From contig OZ024743.1 of NCBI GenBank assembly GCA_964016885.1, positions 235,538,001-235,602,000 on the forward strand: a DNA stretch of 64,000 nucleotides, given 5' to 3'. The notes beneath the pieces were generated by a model. The model was not told the origin of the DNA and did no database searches. It saw only the letters and a program-made list of their open reading frames with translations. Position 1 is the stretch's first letter, and each line of letters begins with the position of its first letter. The stretch is from Eledone cirrhosa (Eukaryota). Positions 8,091-59,902 of the stretch are shown here, in pieces. Position numbers and translations under genes: made by a program.

Positions 8091-8442
8091 TGTTGTGATT
8101 GTTATCAAACCCTTGTTATTGTTATATATCGACATATCAATATCACCATACCCACAAAAGACAATCATTGTTTTTTTTAAAACCTTTTCTTCCGCCATAT
8201 TTGTTGTTTGATTTTATTTATTAATTTATTGTCTGATATTTTAGCAGACGCCAAATATTTTTCCCAGTTGTGGGGGCGTGTTTCCTGGTCAGAAATGTAA
8301 AAGGTCGCTGAGCACAACAAGCAGTTTTAAATGTCTGTTTGTTGCGGCTGTTTTTATCATAATAAACTAGAAATGTTTTCATGAAATTTCTATTCACCTT
8401 TTCAGTTAACTCCAAACGAATTAGAAGTTATTAATTTTGAAA

Positions 8443-8648
8443 TAATAATAATATTAATAATTGTTTCTACTTTTGGCACAAGGTCAGCAATTATCCCAGT
8501 GCATTACTGGTACTTTATTTTATCGACCATGTAAGGATGAAAAGCAGAGTTAACCTCGGTGGAGTTTGAACTCACAATGGTAAGGGCCGTAATTCTATGC
8601 GTCAAAGCATGCTGTCCGACCCTCTACCGATACTTCCAATCCCCGCCC
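8443..8648 (-). mobile_element. tRNA-derived SINE with (TTA)n tail
   Basis: Minus strand: gggcggggattggaagtatcggtagag (A-box-like) ... gagttcaaactcc (B box) ... cttttcatccttacatggtcgataaaataaagtaccag ... ccttgtgccaaaagtagaaacaattatt; closely similar to the + copy at 59623. Confidence 0.85.
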
Positions 8649-8714
<66 letters not shown>

Positions 8715-8720
8715 AATAAT
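8649..8720. repeat. (TAA)n microsatellite
   Basis: Directly visible. Confidence 0.95.
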
Positions 8721-10147
8721 GTATGCAATTTGGTATTAGTAAGTGTGGAGTCCTTGTGATGAAGAGAGGGTAAATTGAGCAGAAGCAACGGAATCCAGGT
8801 ACCAACAGGTGAGATGATAAAGGAAATTGACACTGAAGAAGGATACAAGTATTTGGGTGTTCTGGAGGCTGATGACATCAAGAACAAAAAAATGAAGCAA
8901 TTGATAAGATCTGAATACATTCGGAGAGTAAGGAGCGTATTAAAGTCACATCTGAACAGTAGGAATGCCATAAGTGCAGTAAATTCCCGAACTGTGTCTA
9001 TTATTAGGTACAGTGCGGGAATTGTGAGATGGAATGTTGCTGAACAAAAAGAAATGGATAGGAAGACTAGGAAGCTATTGACTATCTACAACATGTTCCA
9101 CAAGAGGAGTGATGTCGATAGACTCTACTTAAGGAGATCTGAAGGTGGAAGAGGTCTTATCAGCATAGAGGACTGTGTTCAGATGGAGAAAAACAACCTA
9201 CACAAATACGTGACTGATAGTAGGGAGCCAATGCTCAGAACTGTATTGAAGGAGAGGACAATAGACCAGGAGATTTCCAAGGAGGAAATAACAACAAGGA
9301 GAAAGAGTAGCCTTCATTAAAAATCCCTTCATAGTACCTTCTTTGAGAAAACTGAATTCAGAGATCCACAAACATGGAACTGGTTGAAAAGAGGAGACCT
9401 TAAAAAGGCTACAGAAGGAATGTTAATGGCTGTGCAAGAGCAGGCTCTCAAAACGAAGTGGTTGAAACACCATATTTACAAGGAGGAGGCTAGCCCACTG
9501 TGCAGGATCTGTGGAGAGAGAGGAGACTGTGGCTCACATTGTATCCGAGTGTAAACACCTAGCCCAGACTCACTATAAGGGCTGGAGACATGATGTAATG
9601 GGCAGGGTGATCCACTGGCACCTATGCAAAGTAAACAATTTACCACATTCTGAGAAGTGGTATGAGTATAAGCCAGAGGCGGTGATAGAAAACGATCAGG
9701 TGAAGGTGCTGTGGGATTTTAGGATACAGACGGACAAGAAACTGGAACACAATAGACCTGACCTGGTGGTTTTGGACAAAGAAAAAAAGATCGTGCCTGA
9801 TTGTGGATGTGGCCTGCCCATTCGACACGAGAGTGCAGAGAAGGAGAGGGAGAAAATTAACCGATACCAGGACTTAAAGTGGAAGGTAAAAAGGATTTGG
9901 AACTGCCATGAAGTCAAAGTGGTCCCGATTGTCATAGGCACACTAGGTACTATCTCAAAAAGTGTCCAGGGATGGTTAAAGAAAATTGGCCCCGCCACGC
10001 TTTTTGGAACGCTTCAAAAGGCATGCTTGCTGGGAACAGCAACAACCCTTCGATACTTCCTGAATATCTGAGGCTGCAGGTAGTGGCTTGATATTCATTT
10101 CAACAAACTTTCCAGTTAACTAACATCAATGACTGAGACTCAAAGAG
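8721..10147 (+). mobile_element. 5'-truncated R4/Dong-like non-LTR retrotransposon with restriction-like endonuclease (pseudogenised)
   Basis: RT thumb YKYLGVLE and RLYLRRSEGGRGL; CCHC finger (CRIC..ETVAHIVSEC); RHD motif; RPD-type RLE (WDFRIQTDKKLEHNRPDLVV; EKINRYQDL; VPIVIGTLG); stop at 9318-9320 and frameshifts; 3' UTR ends in (TAA)n; 5' flank is (TAA)n. Confidence 0.9.
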
Positions 10148-10472
10148 TAATAACAATAATAATAATAATAATAATAATGATTTCTTTATTGGCCACAAGG
10201 GCTGACATCAAGAAAAACATTACAGACGGTACAGGACGGTACGATGTGGGTTTTGTGCGTGTAAATATTTTTATTATTTATATAAGAAAAGAAAAAAAAA
10301 GGACATAAAACATATATATATATAAACAATAAAAATGAAAATTGAAACAATGAAAAATTCCCCAATAGGAGGTAAACCTCCGAGGGTTACTCGTGGTGAA
10401 AACCACACAAAAGACTACGGCCACCCTGACCACCAGGGCAAGCGCCCTCTCTCAATTTTTCCATCTCTCAAA

Positions 10473-13400
10473 CTACAGACGTATATTCAGAGTGGTTACG
10501 TTCACTTGGACCATTCTCGCTACATTCACCCACCTTTCAACAAACTTGCTAGATGGCAGCACTTGCCTCTCCACCCTGATTTTCCTCTTCAAGTGAAACT
10601 TGAAAAAGTTAATTAGGGATTCGCCGAAGAGGAAAGTGTCTGTCTTTAACCCTTTTAACCTTGTCCACCACACAATCTCTTTCGCCATGGCCACCAGGCA
10701 GATGAAAACCGCCTGCCCTTCCTCCTCGAAGGAAGACGGCGAGACCATCTGCACAATGGATTCAGTCGACAACCGGATCAGTCCCACACGTGACAGCAAC
10801 TGTTCGACATAGCTCCACAAGTCAGCAATACTCGGGCACTGAACGAGTGCGTGCACGACGGTTTCGTCGCTCTGCGCGCATCTCGGACAGGCTCGGCTGA
10901 CGGCACTTCCGTGCCTGTAGAGCTTATCTCGAACCGGCAGCGCTCCCCGGTAGCACTGCCAGGCCAGGGATTTTTGGAAGTTATCCGGAAGAGAGCAAAC
11001 AGCTGATCTTCGACACCCAGGATCTCTCCGAGAATGTCGTCGCTCTTCCCCTCCACTAGTCCTCTATAGAACGCCGAGGTGGATGTTCCACCGATACTTG
11101 TGCCCAGCTGGCAGAGGGCAGTGAGCGCCTGGAGGCCTTCCAGTTTCCAAGCGCTATCCCTCGGTCTTTTTCTGACCCAGGACTGCAGCTCCGTCAAGGA
11201 GACGAGCTGTGGAAAAATGTGCCTGGCGAACGGCGACCACACCTGTTCACCATCAAGGAAGCACCAGAGATGTCGCAGCCTCGGCGCAGGCTTGCGCATC
11301 ATCAGCCATGGCATGCTCAGTCCTCCACGTAACGGGTGTTGACAGCAGATGGATCGTCTGACCATTGGAGCGCGTCCCTTCCACAAAAAGCGGAAGAGAA
11401 GGCGCTCCATTTTGGTGAGAGTTGGGCTGGAGCAAGGGACGACGGTGAGGCGGTAGCAGATGACGGATGCGATGTACGCATTTTCCACCTCCACCCGGCC
11501 TTTCAGGGACAGCTTCCTCTCAGCCCATTTCTGGGTGAGGGAGGCCACCCAGCTCGTCACCTCGTTCCAGTTTTTCTCCATCTGGAGGTCCGGTCCGAAC
11601 CAGACCCCGAGCAATTTAACCGGTCCGTCCGTCCAACGCCCCACGACGCTGTCGGGCGGCATGGACTTGCCTCTCCAGGTGCCGAGCTGCAAGCCCACCG
11701 ACTTTTCCTGGTTTATCTTTGCTCCTGTCACCGTTTCGTATTCCTTGAGAGCGGTGCCGAGCATCTGGACGTGTCTGGTGCTCGACACCACCACGGTGAC
11801 GTCGTCAGCGTAAGCCGACTCGGATTTCCGCATCCAGGTTCGCGTGGGACGCCCCTCATCGCCCCCAGTTTGTGCAGTAACGGCTCGAGAGCCAATACGT
11901 ACAAGAGGGACAAGTGGGGACAACCCTGGCGGACTGAGCGCATGATGCTGAACGGCTGCGACAGGTGACCGTTCACCCTCACAACTGAGCAGATGTCGTT
12001 GTACATTGCTGCGATCCAACCCCTGAAAACGGGCCCGAAACCGGCTGCCTCGAGGACCGTCGCCAGGTACCGATGGTCGACCCTATCGAATGCTTTGGAT
12101 TGATCCAAGTTGATCAGGGCCACACCCTTGCCAGGTTCCTTAACCCCCTCTCTATGATGTATCGCATGAGGTGGAGGTTGTCGTGTATGGATCTGTCCGG
12201 AATGGCGCATGTCTGCGCCTCTCCCACCAGACCCTTGACGACAAGCGCCAACCTCGTTGCTAACACCTTGGCCAAAATCTTGAACTCTGCGTTTAGCAGG
12301 GTTATGGGCCTGAAATTATCGATAACATCCTCCTTGTTCGGGTCTTTTCTCAGCAGCGCCACTGCTCCCCGGCTCACAAAACTGGGAATGCTCCCGTTCT
12401 GCTAAGAGGTCACCGAACAAGTCTGGCATAAATGCATAAAGTTCGTAGGGCAGACCATCCAAACTTGGCGATTTACCCCTTGTGCAGTTAGCTATCGCTT
12501 CCCGTATTTCACCGGTTGTTATTGGCTTTTCGCAACACTGTGCTACGGTCGTCGAGAGCCGAGGCAGTCCGTCGAGGTATGCACTGAAGTCCATGCCCCG
12601 ATCCGGGCCGCCGCCGCTCCCGAACAGTTCAGCAAAGTGCTGTTGAAAAGCTTCACACATCCGCTCGGGTTCGAGCATCACGCACCCGTTTTGGTCAGAC
12701 AAAGACCGAATTGTGGCTTTGTTGTCACGTCGCGCCTCTGCCACCCGGGCCCATTGGACGACTTTTTTCCCCTCGTGTTTCAGAGCACGCGCTCTAGCTC
12801 TGACAACGCAGCCTTCGTGTTTTGCGTTGAATAATTGGTCGAGTGCCAATCTCGCCGCAAGCACGTCGGTTGCGATGCCTGTCCTAAACGCCTCTTCTAG
12901 CTTTCTGACTACCTCTCTCTCTACTCTATTTTCCTCTATCACTACTCCTTTGCTAAACCTAATCGACTCTACTTTAATTGCTCTTTTCAGGGCGAACCAC
13001 CACCTGTTGTTGACGTCCGCTCCCGTCAACGCCCGCTTAACTAATACGCTAATCCGGTCTCTGTAGGCTTTGCGCGCCGGGAAAGACGCGTTCAGCTTCC
13101 AGTAACCAGGCCCTTGTCTATGAAGTCTGTCTATGTCGATCTCACAGATCACAAATTTGTGGTCTGTGTAGTCGACTATTTCAAATTGTGGACAACTTAT
13201 ACTAGCCTTATCTAGTTCTCTGCAGAATACCCTATAGAGATACGATCTGTATGACCCGATGCGGTTTGTCCATGTCCACATTGGCACATTCGGTTGATCC
13301 AGTCGATACCTGTCAGACAATTCAAAACGTCTGAGCAGGTTGGTGAGGCTCTTGCACCCTCCTCCCTATCCACTACCCCCACACGATCCCAGCGTGCATC

Positions 13401-13637
13401 CAAGATACCGTTCCAGTCGCCCACTAACACTAAAGAGCGGGACGTTCCAAGAAAGGTCTCTAGACGTCTGAAGAAATCTGGCCGTCTTGCCCCTGTTGGG
13501 GCGTAGACGGCTACTAGCCTGAAAGCATTGCCTTCGCTGCCGGTCACGTCCAGCACCACCGACTTACCTTCTGGGTCTAGGAAGATGGCCCGTATCGCGA
13601 GATCCAAGCCTCTCCGAAAAAGGATGGCAACCCCTCC
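10473..13637 (-). pseudogene. Tx1-like ORF2 (EN-RT-ZnF) of copy A, fragmented
   Basis: Track ORFs 13212-13607, 12316-13320, 12114-12377, 11728-12210, 10778-12019, 10473-10856 are successive frames of one ORF2. Confidence 0.85.
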
Positions 13638-15365
13638 GTGTTTGCGTTGTTGGTGTTTTTGGTGATGCTGGTGGTGGTGTGGTTGTTGTTGTCAGTGATG
13701 CTTGTGGTGGTGATGGTGGTAGTGTTGCTGCAAGTTTCCTTGCTGCCTTTACCCCTCTTTGTATGCCTTCGCTCTTGGAGGGTGAATCTAAGGGTTTTTT
13801 TTGTTTTTTGTTTTTTGTGGCAGACCGTTTGCCACTTCACTCCCGCTTCAAACTCCATGTCGGATTCTGTGGCGTCTGGGAGGGGTATGTGCTCCACGGC
13901 TGTTGGTGGTGGTAGTGGAGCCCTCTTCGGCAATTTTGTTGCTGGTGTAGCTACTTCAAATGTAGCTATTGGTGTTGCCGCCACTGATGATGATGCTTTT
14001 AGTTGTCCATGGCCTTGGTACGGGTACTACGGACGTTGCCCTCCTACTCACCGTGGAAGGGGCTTCTTCGTTTGTTGCCTGCCCTGCTCTTGGTAGCAGC
14101 GGACCAGGTATTGGAAGGAGAGGGGTCTTCTTCGCTGTCTTCTGCGGGCAAAAGGTCCTGAGGTGACCCTTCGACCCACAGAGATAACATTTTGGCCGTC
14201 TTCCTTCTACACTTATAGGGAGTTGGAGTCTTTCCTCGATGTCTATGATATCGAGGATAGCGTCGATACATTCCTGGTCAGTTTGTATAAGCATTTGCAT
14301 CCCTATATCTGACCAGTTCTCTCTTCCTATTTTTTCTACTTGCAGCATGGTCGTCCTGTTCTCGATTCCAGCAAGGACAGACGCGGCCAGCCAAGGTATG
14401 GGCACGTCGGGTGGGATCTGGGTCACTTTGACCCTCACAATTTTCTGCCCGCAGTAGGAGGGCACCAAGACTATCTCCTCACTCTTTAGGGTTTCCAAAG
14501 AGTGAGACTTTGCTTCCTGGGGGGGGGAGGGGGCGAAAAGTACGTCTACTGTGGCGTACTTTCTGCCTCGGGTGATGTGGGTTTTGCGTGCCCAGACGCA
14601 CCCCAAGGCCTTTTGGATTTGAGCCTCCGTGGCTTTCTCCACCCGATGTGAGATTTTGCTTACGGTGCGGTAAGTCACCGTCCGTAGCTGCTGGTCCTTG
14701 AAAAAATCGGGTGGAGGTTTCAGGTAGACTCTATTTGCGCTTCTTGTCACCATGGCCCTTGCGACTGCCATCTCCTCCTCTGTGACTAACACTGTACGAT
14801 ATTTCGGGCGACACCTGCAAAAGAAGTGGTCCCTTTTTCAGCAGCACCACTATTGCTGCCGCTACTGGTCTTACTGGTGGTGCTGAGATCGCTATTACAG
14901 GTATCGGTGTCATTGTTGTTGTTTTCGTTGGTACAGTTGTTGGTGTTGTTGTTGTTCTTTCCGTTGATACTGTTGCTGTTGTTACTGTTATTGTGGCTGT
15001 TGTTATTATTGTTGTTTTTGTTGATACTGTTCCTACTATTATTGTTGTTGTGGCTGTTGTTATTGTCATTGTTATTGTCGTTCTCAACCTTACCGCTGTT
15101 ATTTTTTGTTATTGTCGTTCTCGACTTTACCGGTGTTATTTTTGTTGTTGCTGTTGTTATTGATGGTATTGCTGTTGGTGTTGTTGTTGGTATTGTTTGT
15201 GTTAGAAATATTTGTTAATTTTAAATCTGTAACAATCTTCTTTTCCTTTGTAATATTTTCGTTTATATTTACCTCCGCTGGAACGCTGTCTTGTTGACAT
15301 GCTGATAAAGTCTCCCTCTCTCTGTGTTGTCTGACAGCGCTTTCTCTCTTTCTTGTATTATCCAT
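13638..15365 (-). pseudogene. Tx1-like ORF1 (gag-like zinc knuckle) of copy A, frameshifted
   Basis: ATG at 15365; low-complexity N/T tract; core homologous to copy C ORF1 (RKTHITRGRKYATVDVLF; LPISVEGRRPKC). Confidence 0.75.
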
Positions 15366-15557
15366 GTTGACATTTTTCAAAAAAATATTTTTACACAAAT
15401 ACGAATACGACACCCCGTAAAGTGGTGCCGTATTATTTACGAGTGAACCCCTGTATTAGGTGGGTCACTTCTTCTAAACTTTTATCAAATTTAAAACTTG
15501 AATAAAAGGTTTAGAACGGTTGAAAACGAGGTAAAACGTTGAAAAAAACTGGAGGCG

Positions 15558-15610
<53 letters not shown>
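15558..15610. repeat. (TAA)n linker between Tx1 copies A and B
   Basis: Directly visible. Confidence 0.95.
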
Positions 15611-15611
<1 letters not shown>

Positions 15612-18600
15612 TTTTCTTTATTAACCACAAGGGTTTACATAAAGTAGACATTAAGGACAGTACAGGACAATACAGGACGGTACAAATGGGCATTTCTGCG
15701 TGTAAAAAAAACAGAGGTTGAAATAAAATAACAAAGAAAAATTCCCCAATAGGGGGGAGACTTCCGAGGGACATTTGTGGAGAAAGCCCATTAAAAGACC
15801 ACAGTGGCCCTGACCACCAGGGCAAGTGCCCTCTCCCAGTTTTCCACCTTTAATTTACAGACACATACTCAGAGAAGGCCCATTCATTCGGGCCATACTT
15901 GCTTCTCTCACCCATCTTTCAACAAAATGCTGGGAAGAGAGCACTTCCCTCTCTACCCTGATTTTCCTTTTCAAATGAAATTTGAAAAAGTTAATCAGGG
16001 CATCACCGAAGAGGTAAGTGCTCGTCTTCAGCCCTTTCAAACGTGTCCACCATACTATCTCTTTCGCCATGGCCACCAGACAGATAAAAACTGCCTGCCC
16101 TTCCCGGCTAAAGGAAGGGGGCGGGGCAATCCTCACGATGGACTCAGCTGATAGCTGGATCCGTCCTACACGTGACAGCAGGTGTTCGACATAAACCCAC
16201 AAGTCAGCAATGCTCGGACACTGGACGAGTGCGTGCAGGACGGTTTCGTCGCCCTGCGCGCATCTCGGACATGCCCGGCTGACGGCACCTCCATGCCTGT
16301 AGAGTTTATCCCGAACTGGCAAAGCTCCTCGGTAGCACTGCCAGGCCAGGGATTTCTGGAAGTTATCCATAGGCCCCGGTCCGAAAGTCCTTCCGAAGAG
16401 ATTGGCTAGTTGATTTTCGTCGACGCCTAGAGTTTCTCCAAGTACGTCGTCGCTCTTCCCCTCCACTAATCCCCTATAGAACGCCAAGGTGGAGTTTCCA
16501 CCGATCACATTGCCCGATTGGCCGAGGGCTGTGAGCGCCTGAAGACATTCCAGTCTCCAAGCGCTCCCTCTCGGTCTTCGCTTGACCCAGGACTGCAGCT
16601 CCGTCAAGGAGACGAGCTGGGGAAAAACACGTCTAGCAAACGGCGACCACACCTGATCACCGTCGAGGAAGAGGTGGAGATGTCGTAGCCTGAGCGCGTG
16701 TCTGCGCATCATCAGCCACGGCATACCCAGCCCTCCACGTAGCGGGTGTTGACAGCAGATGGACCGCCTGACCATCGGAGCGCGTCCCTTCCACAAGAAG
16801 CGAAAGAGCAAACGCTCCAGCGCAGTCAGGCGGGGCTTAGGACAAGGTACGACGGTCAGGCGGTAGTAGATGACGGATGCGATGTACGCATTCGCCACCT
16901 CCGCTCGACTTTTCAGGGATAGCTTCCTCTCGGCCCATTTCTGGGTGAGAGAAGCCACCCTGCTCGTCACCTCGTCCCAGTTTTTGTCCGTCTGGAGGTC
17001 TGGACCGAACCAGACCCCTAGCAATTTAACCGCTCCGTCCGTTCAGCGCCCGACGACGCTGTTGGACAGCATGGACCTGCCTCTCCAGGTGCCGAGCTGC
17101 AGGCCCACTGACTTTTCCTGGTTGATCATTGCTCCTGTCACCGCTTCGTATTCTCTTCGTGTAGTGCCGATCGCCTCGATGTGTTTGGCGTTCGACACCA
17201 CTACAGTGACATCGTCCGCATATGCTGACACGGATCTTCCGCATCCTAGTTCGCGCGGGACCCCCCTCAACGTCTCCAGTTTGTGCAGTAATGGCTCGAG
17301 AGTCAATACGTACAATAGGGACGAGAGGGGACATCCTTGGCGGACCGAGCGCATGATGTTGAACGGTTCCGAAAGGTGACCGTTCACTCTCACTACAGAG
17401 CAGATGTCGCTGTGCATGGCAGCGATCCAGCCTCTGAAGACGGGCCCAAAGCCAGCCGCCCTCAGGACTGCCGCTAGGTAACGATGGTCGACCCTATCGA
17501 AGGCTTTCGACTGATCTAAATTGATCAAAGACCCACCCGTGCCAGGTTCCCTAGCTACCCTCTCTACGATGTATCGCACGAGGTGGAGGTTGTCGTGGAT
17601 GGATCTGTCGGGAATGGCGCATGTCTGTGCCTCTCCCACCAGACCACCAACGACAAGCGCCAACCTCTTTGCTAGCACCTTGGCCAAAATCTTGAACTCT
17701 GTGTTTAGCAGAGTTATGCGCCTAAAATTATCTATGTTATCCCCCTTGTTCGGATCCTTTCTCAGCAGTGCCACCGCTCCTCGGCTCACAGAGCTGGGAA
17801 TTCTCCCGTTCTGTTGCCAGTTGCAGTAGACGTCCGCCAAGAGGCCTCCGAACAAGTTTGGCATTTGTACGTAAAGTTCATAGGGCAGACCATCCAAACC
17901 AGGCGATTTACCCCTTGTGCAGCCAGTCATTGCCTCCCTTACTTCAGCGGTTGTTATCGGCTTTTCGCAACACTCCGCCTCAGTGGCCGAAAGCCGCGGC
18001 AGTCCGTCGAGGTAGACACTAAAGTCCATCCCTCGATCCGGCCCGCCACTGCCCCCGAACAGTCGAGCGAAGTGTCGCTGAAAAGCTTCACACATTTGCC
18101 CGGGATCGAGTAGCATGCGCCCGTCGTGGTCCACCAAAGACCGGATCGTGGCTTTGTTGCCACGACGCGCCTCCGCCACTCGGGCCCATTGAACGGCTTT
18201 CATCCCCTCATGTCTGAGAGCACGCACCCTTGCTCTGACAACGCAGCCTTCGTGCTTTGCATTGAAGAATTGGTCAAGGGCCAATTTCGTCGCAAGTACG
18301 TCGGTCGCGATGCCTTTGCTAAGCGCCTCATCTAATTTTCTAACTAATTCTCCCTCTGCTCTATTTTTCTCTATTGCTAAAGTCTTACTAAACCTAATGG
18401 ACTCTATTCTAATTGCTCTTTTCAGAGCAAACCACCACTTGTTGTTGACGATGGCCCCCGTCAACGCCCGCTTAACTAGTTCGCTAATCCAGTCTCTGTA
18501 GGCCTTGCGCGCTGGTAAGGACGCGTTTAGCTTCCAGTAGCCGGGTCCTTATCTATGAAGCCTATCTAAGTCAAGCACACAGATCACGAATTTGTGGTCC

Positions 18601-19358
18601 GTGTAGCTGACTATCTTGAATTGTGGACAGCCTATGCTAGACCTATCTATTTCCCTACAAAATACTCTATCTAGATATGATCTAGATGACCCTATGCGAT
18701 TTGTCCAAGTCCACATTGGTACATTCGGGAAATCCATTCGGTACCTGTCAGACATTTCAAAACGTCTGAGCAGGTTGGTGAGACTCTTGCACCCTCCTTC
18801 CCTATCCACTAATCCCACACAATCCCAGCGTGCATCTAAGATCCCGTTCCAGTCGCCCACTAACACTAAAGAGCGGGACGTTCCAAGAAAGGTCTCCAGA
18901 CGCCGGAAGAAATCAGGCCGCCCTGCTCCTGTCGGGGCATAGACGGCCACTAACCTGAAAGCTTGCCCGTCTCCGCTGGTCACGTCCAGCACCACCAACT
19001 TACCTTCTGGGTCCAGGAAGATGGCCCGTATGGCAAGATCCAAAGCTCTCCGAAAAAGCACAGCAACTCCTCCCCCCGATCCCGGACGGCTGGGAGATGC
19101 GTACACATCGTAGCCGCCGAAGATCGGTGCGAAAGCCTGTGCTTCGGAGATTCTGGTCTCGCTGATGGCCACTACATCTATGTTTAGTGACCTGAGGTCG
19201 TTGAGCAGGTGGCCCTGCTTCCATGACGACCCCAAGCCACGCGCATTTATGCTGCCTATTCTGAGTGAGGTCATGTTGAAAAGGAGTGGAAAAGATGGGA
19301 AAGACCACTTACCTTACTTCTCGTAGGGGAAGGACGGTTTTTCCATCCTTTTCACTGC
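15611..19358 (-). mobile_element. Tx1-like LINE copy B: inter-ORF spacer + ORF2 + 3' UTR only
   Basis: Begins at the position equivalent to the ORF1 stop of copy C; 3' AATAAA and (TTA)n tail. Confidence 0.92.
15855..19274 (-). pseudogene. Tx1-like ORF2 of copy B, ~1139 codons in one frame with two nonsense codons
   Basis: Track ORFs 18549-19274, 17043-18464, 15855-17024 share a frame; EN starts MTSLRIGSINARG...ISET; YADD; CPRCAQGDETVLHALVQC. Stops at 18549-18551 and 17043-17045. Confidence 0.9.
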
Positions 19359-19622
19359 TTAATAATAATAATGATTTCTTTATTAACCACAAGGGTTTAC
19401 ATAAAGTAGACATTAAGGACAGTGCAGGACAATACAGGACAGTACAAATGGGCATTTCTGCGTGTAAAAAACAAAAACAGAGGATGTAACAAAAAAATAA
19501 CAATGGCAAATTCTCCAATAGGGGGAGACTTCGGAGGGACATTTGTGGAGAAAGCCCAGTAAAAGGCCACAGTGACCCTGACCACCAAGGCAAGTGCCCT
19601 CTCCCAGTTTTCCACTTTTAAT

Positions 19623-22229
19623 TTACAGATATATACTCAGAGTAGGCCCATTCACTCGGGCCATTCTTGCTTCTCTCACCCATCTTTCAACAAAATGCTG
19701 GGAAGAGAGCCCTTCCCTCTCTACTCTGATTTTCCTTTTCAAATGAAATTTGAAAAAGTCAATCAGAGCATCACCGAAGAGGTAAGTGCTCGTCTTCAGC
19801 CCTTTCAAACGTGTCCACCATACTATCTCTTTCGCCATGGCCACCAGACAGATAAAAACTGCCTGCCCTTCCCGGAGGGCGGGGCAATCCTCACGATGGA
19901 CTCAGCTGATAGCCGGATCCGTCCTACACGCGACAGCAGGTGTTCGACATAAACCCACAAGTCAGCAATTTTCGGACACTGGACGAGTGCGTGCAGGACG
20001 GTTTCGTCGCCCTGCGCGCATCTCGGACATGCCCGGCTGACGGCACCTCCATGCCTGTAGAGTTTATCCCGAACTGGCAAGGCTCCTCAGTAGCACTGCC
20101 AGGCCAGAGATTTCTGGAAGTTGTCCATAGGCCCTGGCCCGAAAGTTCTTCCGAAGAGATTGGCTAGTTGATTTTCGTCGACGCCTAGAGTTTCCCCAAG
20201 TACGTCGTCGCTCTTCCCCTCCACTAATCCTCTAGAGAACGCCGAGGTGGAGTTTCTACCGATCACATTGCCCGATTGGTCGAGGGCTGTGAGCGCCTGA
20301 AGACATTCCAGTCTCCAAGCACTCCCTCTCGGTCTTCGCTTGACCCAGGACTGCAGCTCCGTCAAGGAAACGAGCTGGGGAAATACGTGTCTAGCAAACG
20401 GCGACCACACCTGATCACCGTCGAGGAAGAGGTGGAGATGTCGTAGCCTGAGCGCGTGCCTGCGCATCATCAGCCACGGCATGCCCAGCCCTCCACGTAG
20501 CGGGTGTTGACAACAGATGGACCACCTGACCATCGGAGCGTGTCCCTTCCACAAAAAGCGAAAGAGTAAACGCTCCAGCGCAGTCAGGCGAGGCTTAGGA
20601 CAAGGTACGACGGTCAGGCGGTAGCAGACGACAGACGCGTTGTACGCGTTCGCCACCTCCGCTCGACTTTTCAGGGATAGCTTCCTCTCCGCCCATTTCT
20701 GGGTGAGAGAAGCCACCCTGCTCGTCACCTCGTCCCAGTTTTTGTCCGTCTGGAGGTCCGGACCGAACCAGACCCCTAGCAATTTAACCGCTCCGTCCGT
20801 CCAGCGTCCGACGATGCTGTTGGACAGCATGGACCTGCCTCTCCAGGTGCCGAGCTGCAGGCCCACTGACTTTTCCTGGTTGATCATTGCTCCTGTCACT
20901 GCTTCGTATTCTCTTCGTGTAGTGCCGATCGCCTCGATGTGTTTGGCGTTCGACACCACTACGGTGACATCGTCCGCATATGCTGACACGGATCTTCCGC
21001 ATCCTAGTTCGCGCGGGACGCCCCTCAACGTCTCCAGTTTGTGCAGTAATGGCTCGAGAGTCAATACGTACAAGAGGGACGAGAGGGGACATCCTTGGCG
21101 GACCGAGCGCATGATGTTGAACGGTTCCGACAGGTGACCGTTCACTCTCACCACAGAGCAGATGTCGCTGTGCATGGCAGCGATCCAGCCTCTGAAGACG
21201 GGCCCAAAGCCAGCCGCCCTCAGGACTGCCGCTAGGTAACGATGGTCGACCCTATCGAAAGCTTTCGACTGATCTAAATTGATCAAGGACCCACCCGTGC
21301 CAAGTTCCCTAGCTACCCTCTCTACGATGTATCGCCTGAGGTGGAGGTTGTCGTGCATGGATCTATCCAGAATGGCGCATGTCTGCGCCTCTCCCACCAG
21401 ACCACCAACGACAAGCGCCAACCTCTTTGCTAGCACCTTGGCCAAAATCTTGAACTCTGTGTTTAGCTGGTAAGGACGCGTTTAGCTTCCAGTAGCCGGG
21501 TTCTCGTCTATGAAGCCTATCTAAGTCAAGCACACAGATCACGAATTTGTGGTCCGTGTAGCTGACTATCTTGAATTGTGGACAGCCTATGCTAGACCTA
21601 TCTATTTCCCTACAAAATACTCTATCTAGATATGATCTGGATGACCCTACGCGATTTGTCCAAGTCCACATTGGCACATTCGGGAAATCCAATCGGTACC
21701 TGTCAGACAGTTCAAAACGCCTGAGCAGGTTGGTGAGGCTCTTGCACCCTCCACCCCTATTCGCTAATCCCACACAGTCCCAGCGTGCATCTAAGATCCT
21801 GTTCCACTCGCCCACTAACACTAAAGAGCGGGACGTTCCAAGAAAGGTCTCCAGACGCCGGAAGAAATCAGGCCGCCCTGCTCCTGTCGGGCCATAGACG
21901 GCCACTAGCCTGAAAGCTTGCCCGTCTCCGCTGGTCACGTCCAGCACCACCAACTTACCCTCTGGGTCCAGGAAGATGGCCCGTATGGCGAGATCCAAAC
22001 CTCTCCGAAAAAGCACAGCAACTCCTCCCCCCGATCCCGGACGCCTGGGAGATGCGTACACATCGTAGCCGCCGAAGATCGGTGCGAAGGCCCGTGCTTC
22101 GGAGATTCTGGTCTCGCTGATGGCCACTACATCTATGTTTAGTGTCCTGAGGTCGTTGAGCAGGTGACCCTGCTTCCATGACGACCCCAAGCCACGCGCA
22201 TTTATGCTGCCTATTCTGAGTGAGGTCAT
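19623..22229 (-). pseudogene. Tx1-like ORF2 of copy C (EN-RT linker deleted, stop and frameshift near C-terminus)
   Basis: Track ORFs 21363-22229, 20087-21445, 19823-20080, 19623-19844. Confidence 0.85.
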
Positions 22230-22312
22230 GTTTAAAATAGAGTGGAAAAGATGGGAAAGACCACTTACCGTACTTTTCGTAGAGGAGGGATGGTTTTTCC
22301 ATCCCTTTTCAC

Positions 22313-24376
22313 TTAATCGTCTGGTGAAGGGACCGTTGAATCGTCCCTTCGGCTGGTCGTCGGCTCTTCTATGAGTATGTCCGAATATACTCTTCGGTTG
22401 ATAGTTCCTCCTAGGTCTCTGAAATCACCAACTGCGTTGGGGAATTTCGTTTTAATGTTTGTGTATTGTTTCTGTGCTATTTTTAGCAGTCTTATGTTAG
22501 TTGGCGTTTTGATTGGTGCTGGTATTATGTAGTCGTGTTGTGAAATGTCTGTGTGTTCAATTATGTAAGTCATTAGTTTCTTGTTGTGTGTATTTATTGC
22601 CGTGCATTTGTTTTTCTGGGAGTGGGGGGTGGTTCTGCTATTTTCTTGTCGTTGTTGCTGGGTGTGTGTGTTTTGTTGTTGTGTTTGCAATGTTGGTGCT
22701 TGTGGTGGTGGTGTTGAAGGTGTTGTTGGCGGTGGGGTTGTCGCCGGTGGTGATGGTGGTGCTAGTGTGGGTGGTGATGGTGTTGGTGGTGTTGCTGCTG
22801 TGAGTCTCTTTGCAGTAGACTTTACCCTTTTTTCATTTCTTTCCTCCCTTTTCAAAGGCGACGATGCGCTGCTTCTGCGTTTGTGCCTTCTTTCGACCTT
22901 TTGCCATCCCTCTCCCACCTCACACTCCATGTCTGATTCTGTGAGGTCGGGGAGGGGTACCAGCTCCACTCTTTCACTTGTTGTTGTTGGTGATGTTTGC
23001 ACTGGAGTCTCTGTTGCAGCTGCATTTGGTATTGCTGTTGTTGTTGTTAATACTTCCACTGCTGCTGCTGTTTTTGATTTCCGTGGCGTGGGTATGGGTG
23101 CCACGGACCTATCGTTCCTGGTTGCCGCTTGTCCTGTTGCTGGTAGCCGTGGAGCCGGTTTCGGAAGGAGGGGGTTTTCTCCTTTGTCAGGGTCTTCTCG
23201 TTGCAGAAGGCCCTGAGGTGAGTCTTCGATCCACAGCGAAAGCATTTCGGGCGTTTGCCCTCAACACTTATGGGCAGTTGAGTGCCGTTATCGAAGTCTA
23301 TCACATCCGGGATAGCTTCGATGCACTCCTGGTTGGTTTGGATTAACATCTCAATGGAGGTGCCGACCCAATCTTCTCTTACTTTTTTCTGTACTTGCAG
23401 TACAATTGTTTTGTCCTCGATACGACGAGGACAGACGCGGCCAGCCAAGAAGGGGCCATCCCGGGGGGGGGGGGGGCGTGGGTCAGTTTGACCCTCACAA
23501 TTTTTTGTCCGCAGTAGGAGGGCACCAACACCATTTCCTCGCTCCTTAGGGTCACTACGGATTGAGCCTTTGCCTCCTGGCGTGTGGCAAAAAGTACGTC
23601 TACGGTGGCATATTTCTTGCCTCGGGTGATGTGCGTTTTCCGCTGCCACACAGACCCCAAGGCTTTTTGTATTTGAGCCTCTGTGGCTCTTTCAACCCTA
23701 CGGGATTTTGTACTTACTGTACGGTACGTGACCGTACAGTGCTGTTGGGTTTCGAAAATATTTTCCGCTGCCTTGCAGATTGCTCGGTGTCCAGTTTTTG
23801 TCACCATCTTCTTCGCTTCCTCTAATTCCTCATTTGTTATGAGGATTGTTTCTAGGTTCTTCGCGGTACCTGCAAACGAGATTGGTTTTTCTTTGCTGCT
23901 GTTGTTGTTGTTGTTGTTGTTGTCGTCAGAGCTGCTGTTACTTTTGTTGTTGCTGCAGGTACTACGACTACTGCCGCCGCCGCTGTTGCTGTGGTTGTTG
24001 TTGTTGCTGCTGCTAATGCTGTTGTTGTTTATGCTGCTGCTGATGCTGTTGCGGCTGCTACTGTTGTTTTCATTGTCACTGTTGCTGTTGTTATTACGGC
24101 TGTTACTTCTATTATTCCTGACGTCAGACGAATGAAATGGGTTTTCGTATTTCCCGCACACCTGTTTCGTCGTTGTCGTCGTCGTCGTGGAGAAATCTTG
24201 CACGCTTTGCACGAGACTTTTTTTTCTGTCGTCGCTTGCGAAAGAGAAGGGAGGGAGAGAGATACATTTAAAGAAGGGAGGGAGAGAGACAATCTTCTCT
24301 CTGCTGTAGTGACGATTGAGGAAGAAGAAATCGGAATGAGTGGGAGTGACCTATGAAAATTCTTTTTCGTAGCCAT
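22313..24376 (-). pseudogene. Tx1-like ORF1 of copy C, frameshifted
   Basis: MATKKNF start; N/S-rich tract; zinc knuckle CFRCGSKTHLRAFC; Pro/Thr-rich C-terminal part; TAA at 22313-22315. Confidence 0.8.
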
Positions 24377-24592
24377 GTTTTTTTTTTTGTTTAAAATAAA
24401 TATTGGGCACAAAACCCCAATAAGCAGTTATTTAACCCGGAAGGGCCAAATAACGGGCAGAAAGACCCCTCTCACGAGGAGGAGGGTGTTTTTGTCTACA
24501 AGTTGGTTAAAGTTTTAAACAATTTACAATTGTCATAGCGTTCAAAATTTACAATACCTTACAGAGCCGAGCCTCCGTCAACCATAGCATTC

Positions 24593-24630
<38 letters not shown>

Positions 24631-24849
24631 TATGAATAGACTGAATTGATGACCCGGTCAAAATAAAAATCAAAGCAGCACAGCAACAACGAAAAACGTA
24701 AAGAAAATAAAAATGAAGAGAAAAACAAACAGACGGACAGAGAAGGGAAGGGAAAAAGTAAGTCAGACATTCAAACAATACATTACAATGAAACTTATGC
24801 TTATTCATTTTGGGTTTTTTTTTGCCTGTTCGTTTGTTTGTTTATTTAT

Positions 24850-26067
24850 GTTCGTCTACAGCGTGATAATGCCACACAAAAATCACGTGGAGTGACGAAA
24901 CCACCGGAGGCGATAAATTCACCGGTGGTTATGTAACCATACATTCGCCAATCCTCGATAAGAGTGTTTAAATGTCGAACCTAAAGAGTTCGAATAACGG
25001 TGAAATGGAGACTAGAATGTCATGTGACAGACTCTCACCCAACAGGTGCTCCCTGGCTCAGCAGCAGGGACCTGGCTGTCAACCAAATACTGCTGATGTT
25101 GGAGGAAGGAGAAGAAAGAAAGGGTCCAGAACCAACTGGACGAAAGAATTGAATAGAACTGTTATGCAATGTTATCTGAAGAGTAACCCCAAGGAGAAAG
25201 GCTATAGGAAACGGATGCATAACATCTGGAACGAGATTGGTCTATTTAAATTAGATGAACAAAAATTGGCCGGGCAGTCTCGGGTAATAAGAACTAATGG
25301 GTGGATAAGCGAGCTGGAACTGGAGGAACTGAGCAGAGAGATTAGCTTGGAGATGGAGAGTGGAGTATGCCAGGCAAACGAGCCAGTGGGAAATGAAGGT
25401 GAAGAGGTCGAGAGAACGGAGGAACCACCCGAAGCAGACAATGATCTGAATGCTGAGATAAATAATACCTGGAACAGAGATACAGCCACTGAGGAGATGA
25501 ATGCTGACGGGCTAGGACAAGATTTGGTTGATATCCTAAACTTAGTGGTAGATGAATTGAACAATGATAGTGGGAGACCTACGAACCTAAGATTTGTAGA
25601 CAGGAAAAAGTTAAAAGAAACAACAGCTAAGGTAAACAAAGTCATCCCATACCTTGAGGCGAGGAGCCTTCACCAGTGCAACAATATCCTCAAAGCAGCA
25701 GCAAATGCGGTGAGGAAACTACTTGGTATAAAAGCGAGAGGAAACAACAGACAAGAAAGAGCAGAGCCTTGGTGGAAGAAACGACTGAGTGGTCAAATCA
25801 GGGAAATGAGAAATGACATTGGAAAGCTTGAGTCCCTACTGAATGGGACACTAAAAAACATAGACACTAAAAATAGACTGGAAATAAAGTACAAAACTAG
25901 GAGGAAAAAGCTAAATATTATCATAGAGGAACTGAAGCAACGCATTGTAGCAAAGAGTGCAAAACCCTCCGATACGTTCTGAATGTCTGAGGCTGCAGGT
26001 AGCGGCTTGATATTCATTTCAACAAACTTTCCAGTTAAATAACCTGAATGACTGAGACTCAAAGAAC
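24850..26067 (+). mobile_element. Internally deleted R4/Dong-like element (5' region + ORF N-terminus fused to extreme 3' end); 5' boundary uncertain
   Basis: ORF 24972-25982 has the N-terminal motifs typical of this group (WTKELNRTVMQCY, GYRKRMHNIW, EQKLAGQSRVIRTNGWISELELEEL, PWWKKRL); from ~25964 it matches the last ~110 bp of the 8721-10147 element. Confidence 0.8.
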
Positions 26068-26276
26068 AATAATGATTTCTTCTTTAGGCACAAGGCCAGC
26101 AATTTGTAGGTGAGTGGAAAGTCGATTAAATCGACTCCAGTGCGTACTTTATTTTATCTGTAAGGATGAAAGACAAAGCTAACCTCGACCGGATTTGAAC
26201 TCAGAGCGTAAAGGGCCCTAACTCTATGCTGCAAAGAATTATCCGACGCTCTACTGATACAGCCAATCCACCGCCC
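26068..26276 (-). mobile_element. tRNA-derived SINE
   Basis: Minus strand: gggcggtggattggctgtatcagtagag ... gagttcaaatcc ... tctttcatccttac ... ggccttgtgcctaaagaagaaatcattatt. Confidence 0.85.
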
Positions 26277-26300
26277 TCTATAATAATCATAATAATGATG

Positions 26301-26766
26301 ATGGAAAACAAGCAGGTGACGGCGTTATGGGATTTCAGGATACAGACTGATAAAGAATAAGAACACAATAGGCCTGACTTGGTGGATTTCGACAAAGAAA
26401 AAAAGACGTTGCTTGATTATAGATGTAGCTTGCCCCTTCGACACAAGTGTACAGGAAAAGGAGAGGAAAAAATTAACCGGTACCAGGACCTGAAGTGGGA
26501 ACTGAAAAGGATTTGAAACAGTCATGAGATCAAGGTCATCTCATTGTTATGGGAGCACTGGGTACTATCTCGAAGAGTTTCCAAGGCTGACTAAAGACCA
26601 TCAGCCCACCACACTGTTTTGGAACACTTCAAAATACATTCCTACATGGAACCGCAAGGACCCTCCGATACGTCCTGAATATCTGTGGCTGCAGGCAGCA
26701 GCTTAATATTCATTAGGGGAATTATTCCAGTTGAATAACATCAATGACTTAGACATCAAGTAAAAA
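26301..26766 (+). mobile_element. 3' fragment of R4/Dong-like RLE LINE
   Basis: Homologous to 9690-10147 (WDFRIQTDK, HNRPDLV, INRYQDLKW; same 3' UTR), flanked by TAA tracts. Confidence 0.85.
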
Positions 26767-26782
26767 ATAATAATAATGATAA

Positions 26783-27535
26783 TTTGTTTATTGGCCATTA
26801 GGGCCGAAACATAAAGGACCATATAAAAAAATGGATGGAAGGGATTTACATGAAACGTGTAAAACCAGGAAAACAGGAAATAATTAACGATAAACAAATA
26901 ACAATAAAATTCCCCCAATAGTGTGGAGTACCGCCTAGGGGTAACTTAGGAATCCCACAGATCCTAAACCACTGTAATCACCCAGAGCACCATAGGAAGT
27001 GGGGGTTCTCATCTTTAAACACTCCATCCAACATGGTCAGACAAGGTCCAATCCCTTGGGCTATCCTCGCTACGTTCCACCACTTTTTAACAAATGTACT
27101 CGGGGCAGTGTTTCCCTATCTCACTCTCCTTTCCAAGTAGAACTTGGAAATGTTGATGAGAGCCTGGCCGGAAAGGGAAGTGTCTGTCTTCAGTCGCTTC
27201 TCCACACACTCTCTTTCACCACCAGACAGAGGAGAACTGTTTGCCCTTCCCAGCCAAAAGAAGGCGGTGGGGTGATCGTCACGATAGAGTCGGTCAGTAG
27301 CCAGATCTGCTCTACACAGGAGAACAGTTGTTTGACAAAACTGAACACATCAGCAATACCTGGACAGTGGAGGAGTGCGTGCAGAAGAGTCTCGCCACTA
27401 TGTGAACATCTCGGGCAGATACGTCTGACAGCACTTCTGTGTCTGTAGAGTTTGGCTCGACCTAGCAGTGCTTCCCAGTAGCACTGCTAGGGCAGGGCCT
27501 TCTGGAAACTGTTCATAGTCCCCGAACGGAGAAGG
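26783..27535 (-). mobile_element. 3' fragment of a divergent Tx1-like LINE subfamily
   Basis: Minus strand encodes GTMNSFQKALP..KLYRH..CPRC..ETLLHALLHCPGIAD; 3' end ccctaatggccaataaacaaattatcattatt. Confidence 0.8.
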
Positions 27536-27635
27536 AGATAAAGAAAGAGTGGATGGATTGAAGGGGGACAAGCAGGAAGGGCAGGAGGGAGTGAGGAACG
27601 AAGGAAGAAAGAAAAAGGATGGAAGGAAGTAGAAC

Positions 27636-27666
<31 letters not shown>

Positions 27667-29907: not shown

Positions 29908-29996
29908 AGAAGAAGAAGAAGAAGAAGAAGAAGAAGAAGAAGAAGAAGAAGAAGAAGAAGAAGAAGAAGAAGAAGAAGAAGAAGAAGAAGAAGAAG
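29908..29996. repeat. (GAA)n microsatellite
   Basis: Directly visible. Confidence 0.95.
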
Positions 29997-57474: not shown

Positions 57475-57520
57475 CATATATTTTGATTATGTGAACGTAT
57501 TCATTTATTAATATTTTGAA

Positions 57521-57538
57521 TAATATATATATATATAC

Positions 57539-59513: not shown

Positions 59514-59902
59514 CAGCGTTTTTCAAACTTGTTTTTCTGGTGGAACCCTTGAAATAGTTTCTGTGTCTCAGGGAACCCCTGAGACATAAAAATTATTATA
59601 TACCATTATTAACATCTATCTCAGGGCGGGAAATTGGCAGTATCGGTAAAAGGTTGGACATGCTTTCCAGCACAGTTACCTCCCTTTACGATCTGAGTTC
59701 AAATCCCAACGAGGTTAACTTTGCCTTGCATCCTTACGGGGTCGATAAAATAAAGTCCCAGTAATGTACTCGGTAATTGCTGGCCTTGTGCCAAAAGTAG
59801 AAACAATTGTTATTATCTATCTCTTTTTCGGTTTCTCTCGGAACCCGTAGCGACCTCTTTCGGAACTCTAGGGTTCCAAGAAACACCAGTTGATAAGACT
59901 AG
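59514..59902. mobile_element. Degenerate hAT-like MITE interrupted by a SINE
   Basis: Starts cagcgtttttcaaact, ends agttgataagactag (imperfect TIR); repeated subterminal ggaaccc/gggttcc motifs. Confidence 0.5.
59623..59814 (+). mobile_element. tRNA-derived SINE with 9-bp target-site duplication
   Basis: TSD atctatctc at 59614-59622 and 59815-59823; B box gagttcaaatc; tail gaaacaattgttatt. Confidence 0.9.

What the first reader, a model, noticed from the sequence alone, without database searches (positions are those of the whole stretch)
8443..27535. 19-kb retroelement nest built on (TAA)n tracts with a strict strand rule
Seen: junctions at 8649-8720, 10148-10178, 15558-15610, 19360-19372, 24593-24628, 26068-26073, 26279-26300 and 26767-26782 are all TAA runs. 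All three R4/Dong-like pieces are on +; all four Tx1-like pieces and both SINEs are on -. The order SINE(-)/TAA/Dong(+)/TAA/Tx1(-) occurs twice (8.4-10.2 kb and 26.1-26.8 kb) with non-identical copies. Established: Dong (R4 clade) is a (TAA)n-targeting element. Inference: two unrelated LINE machineries (RLE and APE) and a SINE share one microsatellite niche in opposite orientations, and each tail regenerates a target for the next insertion.
Basis: partly seen in the sequence, partly recalled or inferred. Interest (0 to 1): 0.75.

Follow-up and report, generated by a model that had tools for sequence, protein, structure and literature searches.

The report
Jumping genes stacked in TAA tails
Nine jumping genes sit side by side in an animal genome, separated only by short TAA repeats; one type is already known to aim at such repeats, while the other type and a small passenger element share the same end signal and appear to keep landing in the repeats they leave behind.

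Summary
Nine retroelements (18.8 kb) lie side by side, none inside another, separated by eight TAA runs of 10-72 nt; three Dong-like pieces are on +, four Tx1-like pieces and two SINEs on -. Random insertion gives this at most 3e-8. The reading needs two changes. First, there are two engines, not three players: SINE and Tx1 end in the same small hairpin, 15 nt before an (ATT)n tail, with compensatory base changes, so the SINE is probably the Tx1's passenger. Second, the Tx1/SINE preference is not strict: 3 of 8 copies in the window have no TAA run at the 5' junction, and one SINE carries its own tail inside a 9-bp duplication. Best model: Tx1/SINE copies deposit (ATT)n tails and re-insert into them head-to-tail, while Dong, a known TAA specialist, enters the same tracts from the other strand. 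Dong-on-TAA is known. A TAA-preferring Tx1 and an animal SINE with a Tx1-type 3' hairpin were not found in nine literature searches; Repbase could not be searched. The genome-wide 5' flank test could not be run.

The parts
8441..8461 (+). TAA run J0: tail of SINE1, left end of the nest
   Evidence: 20/21 match to pure TAA
8462..8648 (-). SINE1: tRNA-type SINE with Pol III A- and B-box-like motifs and a Tx1-like 3' end
   Evidence: one stem base of the hairpin is mutated
8649..8720 (+). TAA run J1 between two 5' ends (head-to-head); not the tail of either neighbour
8721..10147 (+). Dong1: 5'-truncated RLE-type LINE (end of RT, CCHC finger, PD..D nuclease, 3' UTR); coding homology starts at 8720, the last base of the TAA run
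   Evidence: tblastn to P0192 aa 709-1158, 64% over the two long segments; motifs visible in ORFs
10148..10178 (+). TAA run J2, tail-to-tail Dong1/Tx1a
10179..15557 (-). Tx1a: near full-length Tx1-like LINE; ORF1 with CCHC knuckle (13959-14786), broken ORF2, deletion at about 13637 removing the ORF2 start
15558..15610 (+). TAA run J3, pure, head-to-tail Tx1a/Tx1b
   Evidence: 53/53
15611..19359 (-). Tx1b: 5'-truncated about 90 nt above ORF2; ORF2 (19268-15858, APE-RT-zinc finger) has 2 stops and no frameshift
   Evidence: short TAAT microhomology at the truncation
19360..19372 (+). TAA run J4, head-to-tail Tx1b/Tx1c
19373..24592 (-). Tx1c: full-length Tx1-like LINE with an internal deletion of about 800 bp at 21467
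   Evidence: other copies run on at 21467 (136 and 205 contigs)
24593..24627 (+). TAA run J5, pure, head-to-head Tx1c/Dong2
   Evidence: 35/35
24628..26064 (+). Dong2: 5' UTR and N-terminal ORF (24972-25964) joined by a large internal deletion to the 3' end
   Evidence: tblastn aa 28-348 of P0192; 3' end 90% like Dong1; other copies continue the ORF at 25964 (8 contigs)
26065..26073 (+). Short impure TAA run J6, tail-to-tail Dong2/SINE2
26074..26279 (-). SINE2, with small indels and 29 nt more than SINE1 and SINE3 near the 3' end
26280..26301 (+). Impure TAA run J7, head-to-head SINE2/Dong3
   Evidence: 19/22
26302..26762 (+). Dong3: short decayed 5'-truncated Dong-like piece
   Evidence: 3 stops and 3 frameshifts in 125 codons
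26763..26783 (+). TAA run J8, tail-to-tail Dong3/Tx1d
26784..27524 (-). Tx1d: 5'-truncated, most divergent Tx1-like copy; no TAA at its 5' junction; candidate founder
10191..10203 (-). Example of the shared 3' hairpin (3-4 bp stem, CUUGU loop); counterparts in SINE1, Tx1b, Tx1c, SINE2, SINE3 and, with changed loops, Tx1d and Tx1e
59614..59823 (+). SINE3 outside the nest: body 59623-59805, own tail of three ATT-like units 59806-59814, 9-bp target-site duplication at 59614-59622 and 59815-59823
63883..63991 (+). Tx1e outside the nest: 109-bp 3' fragment, 94% like Tx1b, no TTA run at its 5' side

Best explanation
The nest is a self-renewing landing pad run by two engines. Engine 1 is a Tx1-like APE LINE. 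Its RNA ends in a small hairpin followed, 15 nt on, by (AUU)n. The tRNA-type SINE carries the same hairpin and tail and borrows this engine. Each insertion leaves an (ATT)n tail, which reads (TAA)n on the other strand. Engine 1 nicks that TAA strand, the RNA's AUU repeats pair with the freed end, and the new copy lands head-to-tail with the old one. Engine 2 is a Dong-like RLE LINE that primes on the opposite strand of the same tract, so it always faces the other way. The nest probably began as the tail of Tx1d at the right end. Shown: layout, strands, shared end, element-borne SINE tail, independent origin of the copies. Inferred: which strand is nicked, RNA-DNA pairing, use of the hairpin by the Tx1 protein, the order of insertion. 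The Tx1/SINE preference is soft, not strict.
For: No element lies inside another: P at most 2.9e-8 over all insertion orders, and at most 7e-5 for the six Tx1/SINE copies alone. With the Dongs removed, 5 of 5 neighbouring Tx1/SINE pairs are head-to-tail with only TAA between; two of them (J3, J4) involve no Dong. Three head-to-head junctions (J1, J5, J7) hold TAA that neither neighbour's tail explains, and three mid-element truncations (Dong1, Dong3, Tx1b) abut TAA directly. The heptamer CCTTGTG occurs 10 times in the window's two strands; 6 of the 10 lie exactly 15 nt before the tail of a SINE or Tx1. Hairpin: 29 of 32 cells paired, 3 of 4 pairs change on both sides, slid controls 12-50%. SINE ends resemble the Tx1a end (z 3.9-5.0) and no Dong end on either strand (z below 1). 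SINE3 has its tail inside a 9-bp duplication. In two public runs, 918 and 778 contigs leave the SINE 3' end into a TAA-type consensus. Tx1b vs Tx1c pN/pS is 0.17 in the RT part and 0.47 in the EN part, as expected for separate source copies.
Against: 3 of 8 Tx1/SINE copies in the window have no TAA run at the 5' junction. The shared end is only about 25 nt; SINE similarity to Tx1b-e is weak (z 1.4-3.4), and a score like SINE1-Tx1a is reached at five unrelated places in the window with higher score and two with equal score. No hairpin is more stable than shuffles, and SINE1 does not fold it. The structure was read from these same eight sequences, which are related. No duplication of 7 nt or more joins the two outer flanks, so the founder has no TSD. 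The age gradient is only suggestive: Tx1d against Tx1b+c over the same region, p = 0.14. The window was chosen for this nest, so it cannot give a genome-wide rate.
Confidence: 0.62

Rival explanations
1. Strict specificity: one old, long (TAA)n microsatellite was split repeatedly by Dong and by a Tx1 whose endonuclease is as specific for TAA as Kibi and Koshi are for TC and TTC.
For: 8 of 9 5' junctions in the nest abut TAA. Microsatellite-specific Tx1 families are published (PMC4494074).
Against: No TAA at the nest's right end; SINE3 and Tx1e sit at non-TAA sites; SINE3 brings its own tail.
Confidence: 0.13
2. Only Dong targets TAA. The Tx1/SINE chain arose by template jumping: the reverse transcriptase ran off one RNA onto the tail of the next, giving head-to-tail copies in one or a few events.
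For: It predicts head-to-tail order with a tail between. Tx1b and Tx1c are 95% alike and could be of the same age. Non-TAA 5' sites exist.
Against: The six copies span three Tx1 subfamilies (65-95% identity) and two SINEs 80% alike. Decay differs: 2 stops in 1137 codons for Tx1b, 3 lesions in 163 codons for Tx1d. Spacer purity differs along the nest. Five jumps would be needed.
Confidence: 0.12
3. The stacking is as in the best model, but the SINE rides a different LINE (RTE, CR1, L2 or Dong) and the shared 25 nt with Tx1 is chance or an old relic.
For: The shared stretch is short and AT-rich, and best with one subfamily. SINE/L1-group pairs are rare: three among 58 (PMC3472496). Other LINE families of this genome were not seen.
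Against: Exact 15-nt register, same loop, compensated stems and same tail polarity. No similarity to Dong ends, and the SINE faces away from Dong.
Confidence: 0.11
4. Local tandem or segmental duplication, or mis-assembly, made the repeated order.
For: The SINE/Dong/Tx1 order recurs; Tx1b and Tx1c are 95% alike.
Against: Recurring units are 65-80% alike with different truncation points. Tx1b/Tx1c differences show purifying selection. No public contig spanned the stretch laid, so the assembly itself was not checked.
Confidence: 0.02

Closest known systems
Dong (Bombyx mori), DongAg, DongBg and ostracod Dong elements; R4 clade
   Same: RT with C-terminal CCHC finger and RLE-type nuclease; inserts in (TAA)n with TAA on the sense strand. 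TAA is the target in most insects, molluscs and cnidarians (PMC7998251, passages; PMC3812793, passages).
   Different: Nothing found. Here the TAA is supplied by another family's tails.
Microsatellite-specific Tx1-clade LINEs: Kibi (TC)n, Koshi (TTC)n, crocodilian Tx1 in (TTCC)n/(TTTC)n
   Same: APE-RT LINE closer to Xenopus Tx1 than to human L1; stacks in a simple repeat.
   Different: Repeat is (ATT)n on the sense strand, not listed in the passages read (PMC4494074). The preference looks soft and tied to the element's own tail.
SINEU with Tx1-Mar (crocodilians)
   Same: A SINE moved by a Tx1, sharing its target, often in tandem (PMC4494074, passages and section 16).
   Different: That pairing was inferred from shared target, age and snRNA heads. 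Here the head is tRNA-like and the link is a shared 3' hairpin and tail.
Stringent SINE/L1-clade pairs: maize and sorghum SINEs with LINE1-1_ZM; SINEX-3_CR with L1-1_CR
   Same: Shared 3' end; the monocot pair has a hairpin with conserved loop and compensated stem (PMC3472496, PMC3747384, passages).
   Different: Those are plant and algal; the algal pair ends in poly(A). This one is an animal Tx1-like element with an (ATT)n tail.
Shared-target pairs: Keno (APE) and Utopia (RLE) in U2 genes; TRAS and SART in telomeric repeats
   Same: Two machineries on one target (Keno/Utopia: PMC4640811, passages). Opposite orientations in one repeat (TRAS/SART: recalled, not read).
   Different: Keno and Utopia share a host gene; TRAS and SART are one clade. 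Here the target is renewed by the elements' tails.
RTE-related retroposons whose 3' repeats steer the insertion site
   Same: Tail repeat proposed to select or pair with the primer site (PMC6007223, passages).
   Different: Different clade; no stacking described in the passages read.

Membership tests
Dong / R4 clade | RT followed by CCHC finger and restriction-like nuclease, no APE domain | tested here: met
   CCHC, RHD and PD..D motifs visible in the Dong1 ORFs. The full-length relative P0192 has only RVT_1 on record and scores 105 bits on R2 against 58 on L1.
Dong / R4 clade | Insertion in (TAA)n, TAA on the sense strand at both ends | tested here: met
   3 of 3 copies; two of the six flanking runs hold only 6 nt of pure repeat.
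Dong / R4 clade | RT groups with named R4/Dong elements, not NeSL or Hero | not testable with these tools
   All 18 homologues returned are unnamed. The name rests on architecture, target and recall.
Dong / R4 clade | N-terminal Myb/SANT-like domain | tested here: inconclusive
   Pfam gave one unrelated sub-threshold hit; Atlas look-alikes are unnamed, mostly arthropod clusters. No profile-profile test.
Tx1 clade | Two ORFs; ORF2 = APE endonuclease + RT + zinc finger | tested here: met
   Exo_endo_phos, RVT_1, zf-RVT.
Tx1 clade | ORF1 with CCHC zinc knuckle | tested here: met
   zf-CCHC E 0.0087, below Pfam's cut-off; motif present in Tx1a and Tx1c; Atlas look-alikes are CCHC proteins.
Tx1 clade | RT phylogeny with Tx1 and apart from L1 | tested here: inconclusive
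   Same query scores 210 bits on Xenopus Tx1 ORF2 and 114 on human L1 ORF2p. The 47-row tree has no L1 reference and an open backbone; Tx1b groups 100/100 with 17 unnamed proteins.
Sequence-specific Tx1 (Kibi/Koshi type) | Most copies flanked by the target repeat on both sides | tested here: inconclusive
   5 of 8 Tx1/SINE copies in a window chosen for the nest; genome-wide 5' flanks not obtained.
tRNA-derived SINE | Pol III A and B boxes in the head | tested here: met
   A box 1-2 mismatches, B box 0-1, against recalled consensus motifs. No tRNA call from ARAGORN or Rfam.
tRNA-derived SINE | Dispersed high-copy repeat with TSD | tested here: met
   3 copies in the window, one with a 9-bp TSD; hundreds of contigs with differing flanks.
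Stringent SINE/LINE pair | Shared 3' sequence with conserved stem-loop | tested here: met
   short (about 25 nt), eight sequences only.
Stringent SINE/LINE pair | LINE protein moves the SINE in trans and needs the hairpin | not testable with these tools
   Needs a cell assay.
Octopus SINEs OK/OR1/OR2; CORE-SINE | Match to the published consensus or CORE domain | not testable with these tools
   The alignments are in figures that are not held. The one supplement seen in part showed bivalve SINEs only. The resemblance is recalled.

The most novel reading that the evidence does not exclude
An animal Tx1-clade LINE uses stringent, hairpin-based RNA recognition and an (AUU)n tail in place of poly(A), drives a very abundant tRNA SINE, and homes on its own and the SINE's tails. 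Together they manufacture the (TAA)n niche that the unrelated Dong elements then occupy from the opposite strand. If the host is an octopus, as recalled features suggest, this names the partner LINE of one of its large SINE expansions and explains part of its TAA microsatellites and TE hotspots.
Probability: 0.4. Interest if true: 0.65.

Novelty: new variant of a known kind. Interest (0 to 1): 0.45.

Why it matters
Dong piling into TAA tails is expected. The useful part is the Tx1 side. L1-group LINEs are usually taken to grab any poly(A) RNA, and a survey found only three SINEs with L1-clade tails among 58 pairs, in plants and an alga (PMC3472496). A compensated hairpin shared by an animal SINE and a Tx1-like LINE gives a small, directly mutable signal for testing RNA recognition in this clade. 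A tail that doubles as target would also explain how TE hotspots and TAA microsatellites grow together, and the pair offers two unrelated nucleases cutting opposite strands of one repeat.

Tried and rejected
No genome is held for this window, so no genome-wide count. Reads laid on 19340-26850: the two raw-read runs matched little beyond a TGG-rich patch and tell nothing; in the two contig runs the tool skipped the repeats at 24586-24639 and 26757-26850 and showed 23 loose-end rows with 6276 left out, so 5' flanks of other copies were not seen. No RNA holder was listed; no conclusion drawn. Pattern scans for the SINE middle and the Tx1 end found nothing in viral contigs or prokaryote genomes, nor did a protein scan of viral contigs. 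Eighty metagenome loci of distant relatives (27-43% identity): 1 of 80 has a TTA run of 9 nt or more after the longest ORF, and 2 of the 63 with at least 100 nt of 3' sequence hold the heptamer, neither followed by the tail; too distant to inform. ORF1 had no sequence homologues. Rfam found no tRNA match for SINE1 and no ribozyme above noise in the Dong2 5' region. No TSD across the nest. The host could not be named from protein hits: all close homologues are unnamed. Look-ups of earlier findings by sequence, relatives and the seven-word query were empty. Rejected: duplication and Dong as the SINE's partner.
Full report
Observation. The stretch 8441-27524 holds nine retroelement pieces, 18,807 nt in all, separated by eight spacers of 10-72 nt. 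Left to right: SINE1(-), Dong1(+), Tx1a(-), Tx1b(-), Tx1c(-), Dong2(+), SINE2(-), Dong3(+), Tx1d(-). Every spacer is a TAA-type run on the + strand, from 53/53 pure down to 8/10. Runs of three or more TAA units number 8 in the nest and 1 in the remaining 44.9 kb; the nest has no TTA-sense run. A ninth run closes the left end. The right end has none.

More than chance. If each later element landed anywhere in the growing nest, the chance that all eight miss every element body is at most 2.9e-8 over all orders, even granting all spacer DNA from the start; for the six Tx1/SINE copies alone it is at most 7e-5. Orientation adds a factor of 1/128 (my arithmetic, SINE pooled with Tx1). This null is conditional on one locus that was picked for its look, so it shows targeting here, not a genome-wide rate. 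Duplication is unlikely: the recurring units are 65.6-80.2% alike, and Tx1b and Tx1c differ mostly at silent sites (pN/pS 0.17 in the RT part, 0.47 in the EN part), as expected if they came from separate active sources.

The elements. The minus-strand LINEs have ORF1 with a CCHC knuckle and ORF2 with APE endonuclease, RT and zinc finger. The RT half scores 210 bits on Xenopus Tx1 and 114 on human L1. My tree lacked an L1 reference, so clade membership is likely, not proven. The plus-strand pieces map to one full-length unnamed relative with RT, CCHC finger and RLE-type nuclease, which is nearer R2 than L1. The name Dong rests on this architecture, on the TAA target and on recall. The SINE has Pol III A- and B-box-like motifs. 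The host is not given; from recall the SINE and the simple-repeat load look like an octopus. In Octopus vulgaris, Dong-R4, L1-Tx1 and SINEs are among the main recently active groups (PMC13282606, parts 1-2 of 3 read). That fits but does not identify the host.

What the junctions say. A run at a 3' end may be just a tail, so the strand rule is partly built in. The 5' junctions carry the information: 8 of 9 abut TAA. Three runs (8649, 24593, 26280) lie between two 5' ends. Three truncated copies meet the run in mid-element; Dong1's coding homology starts on the last base of the run, and Tx1b breaks where its own sequence reads TAAT. Take out the Dongs and six Tx1/SINE copies remain, all head-to-tail with only TAA between. 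Two of these five joins involve no Dong at all, so Dong's known habit cannot explain the whole nest.

SINE and Tx1 share an end. The heptamer CCTTGTG occurs 10 times on the window's two strands; 6 of these lie exactly 15 nt before the (ATT)n tail of SINE1, SINE2, SINE3, Tx1a, Tx1b and Tx1c. It is the loop and closing pair of a 3-4 bp hairpin. Across eight ends, 29 of 32 cells pair and 3 of 4 pairs change on both sides, including a G-C/C-G swap between two SINEs and the Tx1 copies; slid controls pair 12-50%. The stem appears in the lowest-energy fold of 7 of 8 ends (in Tx1e extended by one pair), but none is more stable than shuffles, and SINE1 has a broken pair. SINE ends score z 3.9-5.0 against Tx1a, 1.4-3.4 against Tx1b-e, and below 1 against Dong ends on either strand. 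The raw score alone is not rare: five unrelated places in the window beat SINE1-Tx1a and two equal it. The case rests on exact register plus compensation, in a structure I read from these same sequences.

The tail belongs to the element, and the preference is soft. SINE3, outside the nest, has three ATT-like units inside a 9-bp duplication at a site without a TAA run. In two public runs, 918 and 778 contigs leave the SINE's 3' end into a TAA-type consensus with otherwise mixed flanks (agreement 0.41). Tx1e, a 109-bp fragment 94% like Tx1b, has no TTA run at its 5' side. With Tx1d, that makes 3 of 8 Tx1/SINE copies without the run at the 5' junction. The decisive genome-wide count was not possible: no genome is held, and the read tool skipped the repeats.

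Mechanism. In target-primed reverse transcription the primer is the strand opposite the element's sense strand (established knowledge). For Tx1/SINE that is the TAA strand; for Dong, the TTA strand. Opposite first nicks give opposite orientations. The Tx1 copies carry AATAAA just before the tail yet end in (ATT)n and not poly(A), which suggests that copying starts at the AUU repeats, placed by the hairpin and paired with the nicked DNA. Such tail-primer pairing is proposed for RTE and other LINEs (PMC6007223, passages). These steps are inferred. The founder is probably Tx1d: it alone lacks TAA at its 5' end, it is the most divergent, and the right-hand copies show more lesions (Tx1d 3 in 163 codons, Dong3 6 in 125, Dong1 2 in 157; Tx1b 2 in 1137) and mostly shorter, less pure spacers. 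This is suggestive only: p = 0.14 over the matched region, and no TSD brackets the nest. I put the whole model at 0.62. Rivals: strict Kibi-like specificity 0.13, template jumping 0.12, another partner LINE for the SINE 0.11, duplication or mis-assembly 0.02.

What is known. Dong targets (TAA)n in insects, molluscs and cnidarians (PMC7998251 and PMC3812793, passages; the latter lists Dong among APE-type elements, the former as RLE-type). Tx1 families target (TC)n, (TTC)n, (TTCC)n and (TTTC)n, and crocodilian SINEU rides Tx1-Mar and forms tandems (PMC4494074, passages and section 16). An APE and an RLE family share one site in U2 genes (PMC4640811, passages). Only three of 58 SINE/LINE pairs had L1-clade tails (PMC3472496 and PMC3747384, passages). 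I also read passages of PMC8967140, PMC4758252, PMC9115989 and PMC5786205, and passages, one section and parts of the supplement of PMC4824008; none named a partner LINE for an octopus SINE in what I saw. Kojima and Fujiwara 2004, Xiong and Eickbush 1993 and Ohshima and Okada 1994 I saw only as citations. Nine searches turned up no TAA-preferring Tx1 and no animal SINE with a Tx1-type hairpin. The library lacks subscription journals and Repbase Reports, and figures and most supplements were not seen, so prior annotation is quite possible. Earlier notes of this scan describe Dong stacking in other LINEs' TAA tails in two other genomes; I did not check them.

Verdict. A real feature, and mostly an expected one on the Dong side. 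The new part is a Tx1-like LINE and a tRNA-type SINE that share a 3' hairpin and an (ATT)n tail and appear to re-enter those tails. New variant of a known kind; interest 0.45, rising to about 0.65 if the genome-wide flank test and the partner test hold.

Noticed in passing
window 27525-28040: Tx1d's 5' flank is a GA-rich tract, i.e. TC/TTC/TTTC-rich on the element's sense strand, like the targets of Kibi/Koshi-type Tx1. The far flank of the nest is not, so it may be chance.
   Followed up: partly
window 22352 and 24611-25865, runs X1 and X4: Summed contig depth falls just above the ORF2 start (about 3-fold in X1, 493,000 to 156,000 between adjacent bins), close to where Tx1b is truncated. The Dong2 body is deep in X1 and nearly absent in X4 at 85% likeness, while Tx1c and the SINE are deep in both. 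Depth is no copy number.
   Followed up: no
window 24628-26064: Dong2 keeps its 5' region and N-terminal ORF without stops and joins the 3' end across a deletion with a short shared AAA. It may be a one-off deletion; 8 contigs of X1 continue the ORF there.
   Followed up: partly
window 5481-8100: 2.6-kb TGT/TTA-rich minisatellite (39-84 nt units) about 340 nt left of the nest, with short TTA runs in the opposite polarity to the nest. Its make-up resembles the low-complexity start of Tx1a ORF1.
   Followed up: no
window 22-3114, 3999-4685, about 31300 to at least 40500, about 60180-61230: Four tandem arrays (39-nt, 50-nt, about 30-nt and about 36-nt units); the third runs for more than 9 kb.
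   Followed up: no
window 59500-59900: SINE3 sits inside what looks like a small DNA-transposon remnant with inverted ends (resemblance recalled, not tested). Short TTA-like stretches lie just upstream of its TSD.
   Followed up: no
window 62300-63200: Mariner-like transposase remnant on - (HTH_48 and HTH_32 hits) between near-inverted ends.
   Followed up: no
window 56100-56500 and 57130-57530: Two long inverted duplications of 170-200 nt are visible by eye.
   Followed up: no
window 29620-29996: A short LINE-like 3' fragment ends in a pure (AAG)30 run; possibly another tail-derived microsatellite.
   Followed up: no
P0002-P0037: A clade of unnamed proteins 40-53% identical to Tx1b ORF2, some clusters with hundreds of members on long contigs. 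Their flanks could show how old the hairpin and tail are, but could not be fetched.
   Followed up: partly
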